From the IMG/VR virus record IMGVR_UViG_3300046000_002084, positions 1 to 39,015 of that record: a stretch of 39,015 nucleotides of DNA; one strand, 5' to 3'. The notes below the pieces were generated by a model, which was not told the DNA's origin, made no database searches, and was given only the letters and a program-made list of their open reading frames with translations. Origin of the DNA: a virus (Duplodnaviria > Caudoviricetes). Positions 13,344 to 28,951 of the stretch are shown here, piece after piece. Each line of letters starts with the position of its first letter. Position 1 is the stretch's first letter. Both the position numbers and the translations under genes were made by a program.

Positions 13344-13387
13344 AGACCCTCAGGTCATAGGATTACCTATGGCTTGGGGGTCTTTTT
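13344..13387 (+). terminator. Intrinsic terminator ending the late operon
   Basis: 18-bp stem (3 G-U pairs, + strand specific), ATTA loop, then a T run. Confidence 0.85.
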
Positions 13388-13408: not shown

Positions 13409-13452
13409 CGGCGTGTCTAAAACTTGCATTAGGGGTCGGGTGTGTGTATACT
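13409..13452 (+). promoter_or_regulatory. Promoter of replication module with upstream GTGTC (GACAC) motif
   Basis: TTGCAT 13424-13429, 17 nt, TATACT 13447-13452; CGGCGTGTC at 13409-13417. Confidence 0.7.
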
Positions 13453-13455
13453 CAG

Positions 13456-13530
13456 ATTATTAATTAAATTATTAATTAATATAAGGCGCGGAGCGCCGAT
13501 ATAATATATAATTATTATATATAACTTAAT
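13456..13530. other. AT-rich palindromic tract, candidate replication origin
   Basis: Nearly pure A/T with inverted repeats at 13459-13480 and 13505-13521 around GGCGC-GGA-GCGCC; directly upstream of replication genes. Confidence 0.5.
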
Positions 13531-13534
13531 AGAT

Positions 13535-13607
13535 TTACATAGTTCTCCCTTGTTGAGTACCCTCCTGTCCTCTAAGGGAGGACTATGTAACAACTTTCAG
13601 ACAGGAG
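13535..13607 (+). ncRNA. Leader hairpin displaying an anti-SD loop (pseudoknot or antisense candidate)
   Basis: 17-bp stem 13535-13551/13574-13590. Loop CTCCTGTC (13562-13569) is complementary to GACAGGAG (13600-13607). Confidence 0.6.
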
Positions 13608-13613
13608 AAGTCG

Positions 13614-13799
13614 ATGATTAAATTGGACAGTTACGAACTGCCAGCACATATATCCTACTCAGCATTTACAACCTACCTAACCTGTGGTTACCAGTACTAC
13701 TTGGGTAGACTACTTAAGGTTGAAGAAGAACCATCCATCTGGTCAGCAGGCGGACGAGCATTCCACTTGGCAGCAGAGTTGTATGACTATGACAATTAA
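13614..13799 (+). CDS. Cas4/AddB-like exonuclease, N-terminal part
   Basis: ISYSAFTTYLTCGYQYYL and GRAFHLAAE, the N-terminal motifs of Fe-S PD-(D/E)XK nucleases. Confidence 0.8.
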   Translation: MIKLDSYELPAHISYSAFTTYLTCGYQYYLGRLLKVEEEPSIWSAGGRAFHLAAELYDYDN

Positions 13800-14391
13800 C
13801 CCACTATGGGAACAAGCGTGGCGTAAAGAGACCGAAGGTCTTGACTTTGCCAACGCACGAGTAGCAGGACGAGCAACTAAACTCAACCCTAACAAGGAAG
13901 ATGCTGCTTGGTGGTATGAACAAGGTTCCGTATGGACTGATAACTACATCCTATGGCGCAAGAACAACCCTAACTGGAAAATCTGGACGACACCTCAAGG
14001 TGCTAAGGCTATCGAGTTAGAGTTAAACCCTGTCATCTCTGGAGTACCAGTGAAGATGTTCATTGACAGAATCTTTGAGGTTGACGGTAAGTTAGTTATC
14101 GTTGACCTAAAGACCTCTCGTGCACGTCCTCAATCTGACCTCCAGTTAGGCTTCTACAAAGTGGGAGTCGAGATGATGCTGGGTGTGGAAGTCAATCTAG
14201 GAAACTACTGGATGTCTCGTGAGTCGGGGACAGGAGAGATGATTGACCTAAGTAGGTATACACAGGACACGCTTGAATACTTTGTCGATGGCTTTGATAA
14301 AGCACGCAAGGCTGGTATATTTCTACCGAACCTACAATCGTGCAATTTCTGTGGACTCACAGAACATTGCCAATTCACGAAGGAAAAATAA
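13783..14391 (+). CDS. Cas4/AddB-like exonuclease, catalytic part
   Basis: IELEL, IDRI, IVDLKT, QLGFY, C-terminal CNFC-x4-C. Likely start ATG 13783 or 13789 rather than 13684. Confidence 0.85.
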   Translation: MTMTINPLWEQAWRKETEGLDFANARVAGRATKLNPNKEDAAWWYEQGSVWTDNYILWRKNNPNWKIWTTPQGAKAIELELNPVISGVPVKMFIDRIFEVDGKLVIVDLKTSRARPQSDLQLGFYKVGVEMMLGVEVNLGNYWMSRESGTGEMIDLSRYTQDTLEYFVDGFDKARKAGIFLPNLQSCNFCGLTEHCQFTKEK

Positions 14392-14913: not shown

Positions 14914-14960
14914 TTGGTGGAGGGGTATTTATTAGGGGAAGATATCTACCCCTCTTCCAA
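14914..14960 (+). promoter_or_regulatory. Long intergenic hairpin before GACAGGAG RBS
   Basis: TTGGTGGAGGGGTA pairs with TACCCCTCTTCCAA; apical loop AGGGGAA. Confidence 0.55.
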
Positions 14961-14979
14961 CTTAAGACAGGAGAAGCGG

Positions 14980-21576: not shown

Positions 21577-21653
21577 TTATTTTTCTCCTGTCTGTGGTGG
21601 CATTGGTTGATAGGGTATAGGCAATCTCCGCAAATGACAACCGTGTTCTCCAT
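21573..21653 (-). CDS. Cys/His microprotein (26 aa)
   Basis: MENTVVICGDCLYPINQCHH...; coupled at both ends. Confidence 0.55.
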   Translation of the reverse strand: MENTVVICGDCLYPINQCHHRQEKNK

Positions 21654-22141: not shown

Positions 22142-22273
22142 TTATTCTCCTGTCTGAAATGGGTTAGGTGCTGAGATGTTGAACTGTTTTACCTTGACCA
22201 TACAAGGCACACACACGCCCCGCATATTTTCAAGCGTTAAGAATGCCTGAGAACTCTCACATAATCCGCACAT
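22142..22273 (-). CDS. Zn-finger microprotein (43 aa)
   Basis: MCGLC...CVPC; GACAGGAG RBS. Confidence 0.65.
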   Translation of the reverse strand: MCGLCESSQAFLTLENMRGVCVPCMVKVKQFNISAPNPFQTGE

Positions 22274-22274
22274 T

Positions 22275-22361
22275 TTATTCTCCTGTCATTTCGTCGTTGA
22301 TTACTATCCCCGCAATGCATAGCGCGGCGATTGGTAGTAGTGCTAGGGCTAGGGCTGTCAT
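22275..22361 (-). CDS. Membrane micropeptide (28 aa)
   Basis: MTALALALLPIAALCIAGIVINDEMTGE; GACAGGAG RBS. Confidence 0.6.
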   Translation of the reverse strand: MTALALALLPIAALCIAGIVINDEMTGE

Positions 22362-22507
22362 TTCCTTGCCTCCTGTCGTGCGTCGTATGCTCTGACTCTT
22401 TCCATCCCTCGTTTGTGTGCGTCCCACAGATTAACCAACCCGTGAGAGATAAGCAAGCCTGAACCTAAGACAAAAACTAGATAACAAATTGTTATAATTG
22501 TTTCCAT
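22358..22507 (-). CDS. Membrane microprotein (49 aa)
   Basis: METIITICYLVFVLGSGLLISHGLV...; TGATG coupling. Confidence 0.65.
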   Translation of the reverse strand: METIITICYLVFVLGSGLLISHGLVNLWDAHKRGMERVRAYDARQEARK

Positions 22508-22677: not shown

Positions 22678-22702
22678 TTTTTCTCCTGTCTAAGCCGTAC
22701 TA

Positions 22703-23049: not shown

Positions 23050-23069
23050 TTGCTTGCTCCTGTCGTTGT

Positions 23070-23589: not shown

Positions 23590-23616
23590 TCTGTGCTCCT
23601 GTCGTTGTGTCGTTCT

Positions 23617-23973: not shown

Positions 23974-24019
23974 CTTGTTCTCCTGTCTCTGTGTGGGCGG
24001 TTCCCACCTTGCTAACGCA

Positions 24020-24089: not shown

Positions 24090-24737
24090 TCGGAACCTGT
24101 GAGGGAGGTTAGGTCTGTCGATTTGTCGACAATTCTAGAGGGTCTAAGTGATTGAAGTTTCAACTACTTCCCCGCATTCTTGGATTCAATTCAAAAAGAC
24201 TAGACCCCGCGAATATGGACGGGGGATAGTCGCCTAATCAATCTTTCCATTTGTACATTCATTCCTTGCCAACTTCTGGCATTTATACCCCGCAACCTGC
24301 GGGATTTATTATGTAAAGTAAACTCTAACCCTCAGGTATACGTTGAGGGTCTAGGTTCCGTAGGTTCTTGCCTACCTTTTGACCGTAGGGTTGTTTAATT
24401 TGCTCACTTACTTGTATATATACTCCCATCATAATTTTCTGTTATATTTGCTAAATGCGCCCTGACCAGGGCTTTTATATATATTAGCCCCCCTTATATA
24501 AATATTTAAAAATATATTGATATTAAGTGTTCGGTTTTGGTACTTTGAACGGGTTATCTTATATGTAAAGATTAATTATAATCTTTAACGGATTAACCTC
24601 CGTTTGCTCTACGGTTAATCCTTAATAATATATAATATATATAACAGTTACCACAGTTATGCCGTCAGGCAGATACCGTTTATTGAGCGTTTTTAAACCT
24701 CTACAGAGGGCGACGAAATACACCCTAGGGGGCACCA
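24090..24737. other. Non-coding divergence region rich in palindromes (candidate terminus/pac/ori)
   Basis: No convincing ORF; lies between early and late units; many inverted repeats and AT tracts. Confidence 0.55.
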
Positions 24738-28414: not shown

Positions 28415-28951
28415 ATGACAACAATTATCGGCGTTGAATACGCAAATCGCTGTGTTGTTCTTGGCGATTCTCGTGTAGTAGGTGACTCAAAGATTTATTC
28501 TCATCCAGATATGGTTAAAGTTATAACTAACGGAAACTTTATTATTGGAGCAGCAGGTGATGTACGAGCACTGCAAGTTATCTTGCATACTTGGAAGCCG
28601 CCTACAGCGATTGCTAAAGATAAAGAAAATCCTTTTCAGTTTATGGTCAACAAGGTTGTTACATCTCTTAAGCAACAACTGACCGATTCTAATATTTTAG
28701 ACGCAAAGTCGACAGACAAAGAGTTTGAACTTTATGTGTTAATAGCATTTAATGGAAACATCTTTGAAATTGATAGCGACTTTGCAGTCTCTCGTAGTGA
28801 TTCAGGATATTACGGTATAGGCACTGGTGGAGATTATGCTCTCGGTGCGCTTTATGCAGGTGCCACTCCAGAACAAGCAGCATCTATTGCTGCACTTAAT
28901 GATAGCAAAACAGCGGAACCATTTATATTAGAAACTCAGTACAAAAAATGA
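28415..28951 (+). CDS. HslV/proteasome-beta-like Ntn peptidase
   Basis: M-TTIIG N-terminal Thr, GDSR, K, IGAAG, GIGTGGDYALGAL. Confidence 0.85.
   Translation: MTTIIGVEYANRCVVLGDSRVVGDSKIYSHPDMVKVITNGNFIIGAAGDVRALQVILHTWKPPTAIAKDKENPFQFMVNKVVTSLKQQLTDSNILDAKSTDKEFELYVLIAFNGNIFEIDSDFAVSRSDSGYYGIGTGGDYALGALYAGATPEQAASIAALNDSKTAEPFILETQYKK

What the first reader, a model, noticed from the sequence alone, without database searches (positions are those of the whole stretch)
13535..13613. Hairpin loop carries the exact antisense of the early-gene start signal: candidate early-to-middle RNA switch
Seen: a 17-bp stem (one G-U pair) in the replication-operon leader presents CCTCCTGTC in its loop. CTCCTGTC is the perfect complement of GACAGGAG, which is the RBS 10 nt downstream (13600-13607), the RBS at 14966, and the RBS of eight early genes on the other strand. 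The 3' arm also reads GGGAGG-ACT-ATG-TAA, a start-stop minigene. Inference: in cis it forms a pseudoknot occluding the nuclease RBS. In trans, one RNA made from the middle promoter could shut off translation of all GACAGGAG genes. That would explain why the phage conserves the GAC bases 5' of the normal SD, which do not match the canonical 16S anti-SD.
Basis: partly seen in the sequence, partly recalled or inferred. Interest (0 to 1): 0.85.

Follow-up and report, generated by a model that had tools for sequence, protein, structure and literature searches.

The report
Phage RNA loop matching early-gene tags
A family of freshwater actinobacterial phages keeps a folded RNA hairpin whose exposed loop is the exact complement of a short tag at the ribosome-landing sites of its early genes; loop and tag change together in several distant phages, so the RNA likely switches those genes off as a group and may explain similar unexplained tags in mycobacterial phages.

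Summary
Confirmed and extended. The 18-bp hairpin (13535-13590) leads the replication operon of a Planktophila-type actinophage; two cultured relatives carry it. In 45 aligned variants, 14 of 18 stem pairs show compensatory changes while the loop core CTCCTGTC stays fixed. GACAGGAG sits at 10 ribosome-binding sites (8 early) and is enriched only in the clade with this hairpin (median 8 versus 0 per record). It is no host anti-SD variant: its C mismatches the actinobacterial 16S tail and pairs with the loop's G. Loop and tag co-vary in 5 of 12 loop sets tested (e.g. TTGTCTCC/GGAGACAA, TCTCCATT/AATGGAGA). One is cluster K mycobacteriophages, whose lone reverse start-associated sequence (SAS) lies in a hairpin loop where Adephagia late transcription starts; other K subclusters lack it. 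Best reading (0.6): a loop that pairs in trans and represses translation of tagged genes, working like 6C/B11 RNA. Transcript, binding, timing and direction of effect are unshown; a cis pseudoknot is not excluded; the ATG-TAA minigene is not conserved. No Rfam match or paper found. This scan noted similar anti-SD hairpins in other phage genomes.

The parts
13344..13383 (+). Intrinsic terminator closing the late/lysis operon upstream
13424..13452 (+). Predicted sigma-70-type promoter TTGCAT-17-TATACT with TG extension; start predicted near 13458
   Evidence: sequence; not listed by the consensus scan; similar sites in relatives
13458..13534 (+). AT-rich leader with a small GC hairpin (13485-13497); a similar AT tract and small hairpin also occur in relatives lacking the main hairpin
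13535..13590 (+). Main RNA hairpin: 18-bp stem and 20-nt loop, partly closed by GAG:CUC
13562..13569 (+). Loop core CTCCTGTC, antisense to the GACAGGAG tag
13600..13607 (+). Tagged RBS of the first replication-operon gene (ATG 13614)
13614..13799 (+). N-terminal half (61 aa) of a split Cas4-like PD-(D/E)XK nuclease
13786..14391 (+). C-terminal half of the split nuclease
14229..14236 (+). Internal GACAGGAG in the nuclease coding sequence; synonymous positions constrained in the hairpin clade (GGG 39, ACA 40, GGA/GGG 41 of 42)
14914..14960 (+). Second conserved long hairpin with a GGGGAAG loop, 5 nt before the next tag
14966..14973 (+). Tagged RBS (ATG 14980) ahead of the helicase region
21585..21592 (-). 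Early-gene tag
22147..22154 (-). Early-gene tag
22280..22287 (-). Early-gene tag
22370..22377 (-). Early-gene tag
22683..22690 (-). Early-gene tag
23057..23064 (-). Early-gene tag
23596..23603 (-). Early-gene tag
23980..23987 (-). Early-gene tag (first gene of the early block)

Best explanation
The hairpin is a conserved structured element in the predicted 5' leader of the replication operon whose loop is antisense to a phage-specific start tag, and it likely base-pairs in trans with the tagged ribosome-binding sites and would block their translation as the transcript accumulates. Shown: the stem, its strand, the fixed loop, the tag and their joint distribution and co-variation. Inferred: GACAGGAG still works as a strong SD (7 of 8 with the host tail), so tagged genes need no activator and are translated from the start of infection. 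The C at position 3 makes the site a perfect 8-bp partner for the loop and sets it apart from late and host AAGGAG sites. Loop-first pairing, as in 6C/B11 or c4 RNA, would then shut down the early block and also limit the operon's own first gene (the nuclease), in trans or through a cis pseudoknot. Whether the hairpin acts from the full mRNA or is cut out is unknown.
For: (1) Stem: 14 of 18 pairs with changes on both sides, 97% of cells paired; the whole structure beat all 500 shuffles and all slid controls. G-U 65 versus A-C 6 fixes the + strand as the folded one. (2) Loop to adjacent RBS: 98.6% of cells paired; changes are mostly wobbles, plus one compensatory G-C to A-U event (L343 TCCTATC/GATAGGAG). 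(3) GACAGGAG counts are 3-15 (median 8) in 18 hairpin-clade records and 0-2 in 22 relatives lacking this hairpin. GAC precedes the SD core in 47 of 113 early-strand ORFs versus 0 of 41. The 54-64% sister group mostly starts the nuclease leaderless. (4) No 16S explanation: a GTDB-wide scan gave 3 hits, none an actinobacterial 16S, and 50 of 50 tails read CACCTCCTTTCTA. (5) Loop and own-leader 8-mers are enriched in 5 of 12 loop sets: 10 vs 0.67 expected, 7 vs 0.43, 21 vs 3.9, 8 vs 1.7, 15 vs 0.45. (6) In cluster K, CCTCCTATCCCC sits in a hairpin loop in 5 of 5 Anayavirus and 4 of 4 Kratiovirus records with no SAS just downstream. In Adephagia it lies between genes 92 and 93, where late transcription is reported to start (PMC11373665, passage). 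(7) The internal copy at 14229 keeps its synonymous bases.
Against: No transcript, binding or effect was observed; the RNA runs were contigs only. In this clade the hairpin always has a matching RBS 5-11 nt downstream, which suits a cis role, and no terminator follows it. Six of 12 loop sets show no enrichment and one is borderline; several of those loops resemble the plain host tail. SAS persist in Pixie (19), Unicorn (17) and ZoeJ (14) with no exact antisense loop, and 4 Amginevirus/Unicornvirus loops are degenerate. Tag versus hairpin is one phylogenetic contrast, and loop-RBS compensation within the clade is one event in two short contigs without the early block. Loop cores were picked by eye after seeing the adjacent RBS. 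Eight base pairs is short: the unconstrained loop scores -13 kcal/mol or better at 241 places in the window. The promoter looks like a host consensus one, so late timing is unproven here. Other synonymous sites in the nuclease are as conserved as the internal tag (8 of 52 at 0.9 or more).
Confidence: 0.6

Rival explanations
1. The loop pairs with tagged sites in trans, but the outcome is not simple blocking: it guides cleavage or processing (an RNA-guided counterpart of T4 RegB), or stabilises or activates tagged mRNAs.
For: All co-variation evidence shows pairing, not its sign. The constrained copy inside the nuclease coding sequence suits cleavage or decay better than initiation block. Two long stems each precede a tag, like RNase III sites of T7 early mRNA (recalled).
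Against: Tags sit exactly on the SD, so pairing competes with the 30S subunit. Tagged genes are strong SD sites already (median -9.7 vs -7.3 kcal/mol). In Adephagia some SAS/ESAS-region genes (36-38, 91) are transcribed in the lysogen and the early block before late transcription (PMC11373665, passages), which argues against an activator.
Confidence: 0.15
2. Cis only: a pseudoknot or switch that tunes the first replication gene; early genes share GACAGGAG merely as an inherited strong SD.
For: A matching RBS always lies 5-11 nt downstream. The geometry allows pairing in the window (about 50 A needed, about 65 A available) or after opening 2-3 basal pairs for 1.4-2.8 kcal/mol. In several distant lineages only the adjacent RBS matches.
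Against: It does not explain the C that weakens 16S pairing at distant early genes only in this clade, the lineage-specific early tags, or cluster K loops with no adjacent SAS. Linkers of 5 nt cannot span an intact 17-18 bp stem, and basal pairs are compensated (21 of 45 rows at one basal pair).
Confidence: 0.12
3. The tag is a binding site for a phage or host protein (translational regulator or nuclease), and the hairpin is a processing site or a cis lock that hides the same site.
For: Pope et al. left a protein or RNA partner open (PMC3203893, passages); PMC11373665 speculates on gp51. SAS persist in K subclusters without an exact loop. The basal stem motif TAGATAG/CTATCTA is conserved in sequence.
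Against: Loop and tag change as Watson-Crick partners in five loop sets, and tag variation is mostly wobble-compatible.
Confidence: 0.08
4. The loop is a generic anti-SD decoy aimed mainly at host mRNAs (host shut-off), and phage tags are secondary.
For: Several distant loops copy the host tail exactly (CTCCTTTCT in L345, L664, L326), and one clade loop reads TCACCTCCTGTC.
Against: In this clade the loop's G mismatches canonical GAAAGGAG sites and fits the phage's own tag. Host tag usage was not measured.
Confidence: 0.05

Closest known systems
6C / B11 sRNA of Actinobacteria (PMC10470900, abstract and passages)
   Same: Stem-loops whose pyrimidine-rich loops pair with ribosome-binding sites in trans and repress them; same host phylum.
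   Different: Host-encoded free sRNA with two C-run loops and G-run targets. Here one loop, phage-encoded, sits in a predicted mRNA leader, and its partner is a phage-specific tag that co-varies with it. No Rfam match.
Start-associated sequences (SAS) of cluster K mycobacteriophages and cluster EF Microbacterium phages (PMC3203893, PMC7302621, PMC11373665, PMC12699233; passages)
   Same: Over-conserved extended SD before non-structural genes, one orientation, with a single reverse copy in K1; function stated as unknown up to 2024-2025. The SAS core GATAGGAG differs from GACAGGAG by one base.
   Different: The SAS is 13 bp and often tied to ESAS promoter repeats; the tag here is 8-9 nt. No homology was shown between the two hairpins (model R1 found nothing in K loci). 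That the reverse copy lies in a hairpin loop is not stated in the passages read.
c4 antisense RNA of phages P1/P7 (PMC12197685, passages)
   Same: Phage RNA that blocks translation in trans near a ribosome-binding site through loop-presented complementary sequences.
   Different: c4 controls one antirepressor operon in lysogeny and immunity; here about ten dispersed genes share one tag. No Rfam match.
T4 RegB endoribonuclease (PMC1702504, search listing with start of abstract)
   Same: Class-wide shut-off of early phage mRNAs addressed through a motif in the SD (GGAG).
   Different: RegB is a protein nuclease; here the predicted reader of the motif is an RNA loop.

Membership tests
6C/B11 RNA | Match to the Rfam covariance model | tested here: not met
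   0 matches at gathering score in the window; no 6C hit among 14 weak matches
6C/B11 RNA | Two adjacent hairpins with C-run loops | tested here: not met
   One loop, CCCTCCTGTCCTC
6C/B11 RNA | Loop complementary to target ribosome-binding sites | tested here: met
6C/B11 RNA | Repression by loop pairing shown with loop mutants | not testable with these tools
   needs reporters
SAS-type start tags | Repeated asymmetric motif at the RBS position of non-structural genes, conserved beyond what 16S pairing needs | tested here: met
   10 of 12 copies at starts, none before structural genes; position-3 C mismatches the tail
SAS-type start tags | The 13-bp cluster K consensus GGGATAGGAGCCC | tested here: not met
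   Tag context is (A/C)GACAGGAG with variable flanks
SAS-type start tags | Upstream ESAS 17-bp inverted repeats | not tested
   Early promoters of the form TTGACA-17-GAGACT/CACTAT/GACTCT were seen, repeats not analysed
c4 antisense RNA | Rfam model match | tested here: not met
Leader minigene / attenuator | Conserved start and stop codon in the 3' arm | tested here: not met
   ATG plus stop in 11 of 46 true variants; pair kept as G-C in 24 of 45 rows
Intrinsic terminator | Short loop followed by a U tract | tested here: not met
   Not called as a terminator; 20-nt loop, no T run
H-type translational pseudoknot | Second helix with covariation and linker lengths that can span the first helix | tested here: inconclusive
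   Pairing kept in 98.6% of cells with one compensatory event; linkers of 5-10 nt against a 15-19 bp stem are marginal
RNase III processing site | Cleavage in a stem of about two helical turns | not testable with these tools
   Stem of 18+3 bp fits the recalled size; no read ends available

The most novel reading that the evidence does not exclude
Actinophages widely use a tag/anti-tag code: each lineage writes its own extended SD on early genes and carries one matching loop on a later transcript, so that a single RNA silences a whole temporal class while sparing host and late genes. The cluster K SAS, unexplained since 2011, would be such tags, read by the hairpin at the head of the late transcript.
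Probability: 0.4. Interest if true: 0.92.

Novelty: new variant of a known kind. Interest (0 to 1): 0.82.

Why it matters
It would be an RNA-only way for a lytic phage to retire a whole class of genes, addressed by a private variant of the Shine-Dalgarno sequence. It gives a sharp, cheap test for the long-open function of mycobacteriophage SAS motifs in a tractable system (Adephagia in M. smegmatis). Two cultured Planktophila phages carry this very hairpin, so it can also be tested in the most abundant freshwater bacteria. Natural loop/tag pairs could serve as orthogonal translation switches in Actinobacteria.

Tried and rejected
Host 16S tail variant as the cause of the tag: rejected as far as testable. 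Planktophila's own tail was not identified; rhodopsin screens did not give a genome I could call acI. The tally of 177 of 301 genomes includes seven genomes flagged unpublished; no other claim uses them. Minigene: rejected. Terminator: rejected. Minus-strand or DNA cruciform function: disfavoured by 65 G-U versus 6 A-C. Rfam: nothing for the window and only a tRNA in 7 cluster K loci. Expression: 4 of 24 listed runs were laid, all contigs, with almost no cover of the hairpin; uninformative. Searching for longer contigs with the TCCTATC loop gave only the same two short contigs; 19 of 21 matches were unrelated. Model R1 did not find the distant loops at useful scores (best L329, E 0.03), so homology with the distant hairpins rests on position only. 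Free-loop duplex energy is not selective. The hairpin detector made 4 false picks in 50; three were corrected and L053 was not rechecked. One search used a structure string shifted by one column and was replaced. L306's GAGAGG tag looked matched by eye but failed the 7- and 8-mer test. Literature searches found no description of this hairpin or of an antisense loop for SAS. The library lacks most subscription papers, and supplements (Pope Fig. S3, Weinberg 2017 motif files) and a recalled catalogue of candidate phage structured RNAs were not seen and may list the motif.

Full report
Setting. The window is a nearly complete 39-kb virus record with WhiB, a sigma-70 region 4 protein, a split Cas4-like nuclease, helicase, primase, terminase and portal. 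Its nuclease is 96% identical to that of OX376641. The titles of OX376641 and OX376640 name phages LanE43-AprF5 and AprE7, described as the first cultured phages of 'Ca. Planktophila' (PMC10202952, first of two parts read). They cover 78% and 57% of the window at about 87% identity, and both carry the hairpin, early tags and one antisense copy in the loop. The host is therefore likely an acI actinobacterium.

Observation. The stem, loop and sites are as described. GACAGGAG occurs 12 times against 0.86 expected. Ten copies lie 5-9 nt before start codons of early or replication genes, one is the loop, and one is inside the nuclease. None precedes a structural gene.

The hairpin is a conserved RNA structure. 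All 113 loci examined with nuclease identity of 70% or more (some are the same contig fetched twice) gave a candidate, in 50 distinct forms. Four of these were false picks, and the true hairpin was found in three of those four. In 45 aligned variants (L358 left out) 14 of 18 stem pairs change on both sides and 97% of cells pair; the whole structure beat all 500 shuffles and all slid controls. These controls do not fully remove relatedness. G-U outnumbers A-C 65 to 6, so the + strand folds. An independent pattern scan gave 121 loci: 74 passed a stem filter (one unrelated), 14 more were family members with bulged stems, and 33 were not family hairpins. Every family member had a loop-matching RBS just downstream. 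The ATG-TAA minigene survives in only 11 of 46 variants.

The tag is not the host's anti-SD. A scan of all GTDB species genomes for a 16S end reading CCTCCTGTC gave 3 hits: a coding-region match, a gammaproteobacterial contig beside an N run and an archaeal 16S. Fifty of 50 Actinomycetota tails read CACCTCCTTTCTA; Planktophila's own was not identified. GACAGGAG thus matches the tail at 7 of 8 positions and the loop at 8 of 8. Tagged leaders pair with the free loop at a median -15.0 kcal/mol versus -9.7 with the tail; 37 other leaders give -9.4 and -7.3. The free loop also scores -13 or better at 241 places, so energy alone proves little.

Tag and loop go together. Eighteen hairpin-clade records hold 3-15 copies (counts include the loop and the internal copy); 22 relatives without this hairpin hold 0-2. 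With crude ORF calls, GAC precedes the SD core in 47 of 113 early-strand ORFs of 11 genomes versus 0 of 41 in 10 others. This is one phylogenetic contrast. The 54-64% sister group mostly has a promoter directly before the nuclease start, with no leader. Within the clade the adjacent RBS varies mostly by wobble, and L343/L393 change loop and RBS together to TCCTATC/GATAGGAG. That is one event, in contigs lacking the early block. The internal copy keeps GGG, ACA and GGA/GGG in 39, 40 and 41 of 42 dereplicated genes, against a median of 0.68 for four-fold sites, though 8 of 52 such sites reach 0.9.

Deep co-variation. Of 142 distinct distant leaders, 41 passed a loose loop-hairpin filter, some spuriously; several lineages at 37-47% identity have a long stem with a pyrimidine loop before the same gene. 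I tested 12 loop sets against start leaders of 20 records. Own-lineage 8-mer matches were enriched for the window (10 vs 0.67), TTGTCTCC/GGAGACAA (7 vs 0.43), TCCTCCTT/AAGGAGGA (21 vs 3.9), TCTCCATT/AATGGAGA (8 vs 1.7) and Anaya (15 vs 0.45). One set was borderline (5 vs 1.95) and six were not enriched. Loop cores were chosen by eye, and the adjacent RBS counts among the matches, so the P values are rough.

Cluster K. Pope et al. described SAS of unknown function and a single reverse copy in four K1 phages (PMC3203893, passages); papers of 2024 and 2025 still call the role unclear. That reverse copy lies in the loop of a long hairpin in 5 of 5 Anayavirus records examined, and in 4 of 4 Kratiovirus records between tRNA-Trp and the small terminase, with no SAS just downstream. 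In Adephagia it sits between genes 92 and 93, where late transcription is reported to begin. Against generality: four Amginevirus/Unicornvirus loops are only degenerate C-rich, Pixie has none in its whole record, Hurricane none in the 664 nt seen, and ZoeJ's lone forward match is likely the SAS of a leftward gene. No homology between the K and freshwater hairpins was shown.

Mechanism. The most economical reading is trans pairing that occludes tagged SD sites, like 6C/B11 RNA (PMC10470900, passages) or c4 RNA, with a class-wide outcome like T4 RegB (listing). A cis pseudoknot with the adjacent RBS is possible in the window and marginal for 5-nt linkers (rule-of-thumb distances, recalled). It may coexist with trans pairing but cannot explain distant tags. 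The promoter is a predicted near-consensus host type and no terminator follows the hairpin, so timing and release as a small RNA are open. Public RNA runs were uninformative.

Novelty. No Rfam family matched and no description was found in the searches named under Tried and rejected. The pairing mode is known; the phage-private, co-varying tag addressed by a leader loop is the new part. This scan's notes list 58 similar findings in at least 57 other genomes, two citing the SAS parallel. They are unchecked AI notes seen after my cluster K result, and none overlaps this DNA.

Noticed in passing
window 13614-14391: The Cas4-like nuclease is split into a 61-aa N-part and a 201-aa C-part in every close relative listed and in distant ones (N-part 62-74 aa); junctions vary and some phages insert a gene between the halves, so it is a real two-gene form.
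   Followed up: partly
window 14914-14960: Second long hairpin, 5 nt before a tag, found in 112 of 119 clade loci; the stem varies, and GGGGAAG occurs in 65 of 69 distinct forms, usually in the loop. Could be a processing site or a protein- or RNA-binding loop.
   Followed up: partly
window 13458-13534 and 24380-24680: AT-rich tracts with short palindromes; the first, with a small GC tetraloop hairpin, is shared by relatives with and without the main hairpin. Candidate replication origin; the second lies between the early block and the terminase, near the likely genome end.
   Followed up: no
window about 14310-14390 (3' end of nuclease C-part): Several four-fold degenerate sites near the 3' end are invariant in 42 dereplicated genes, suggesting an overlapping signal.
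   Followed up: no
L220-L297 (sister group): The nuclease gene is mostly leaderless (TTGACA-17-TATAAT directly before ATG), and a small reverse-strand ORF starts upstream of the AT tract.
   Followed up: partly
L345, L351, L360, L664, L326, L616 leaders: Hairpin loops that copy the host 16S tail (CTCCTTTC), possible generic anti-SD decoys.
   Followed up: partly
L399:31700-32060: The cluster K late leader folds into a multi-hairpin structure of about 300 nt, with blast matches in 150 records and no Rfam match.
   Followed up: partly
window 24049, 23119, 22757 (- strand): Three early promoter-like sites share TTGACA and a non-consensus -10 region, unlike the consensus-type promoter of the replication operon.
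   Followed up: no
window 28415-28951: Weak Pfam proteasome-subunit (Ntn hydrolase) match right after the portal gene.
   Followed up: no
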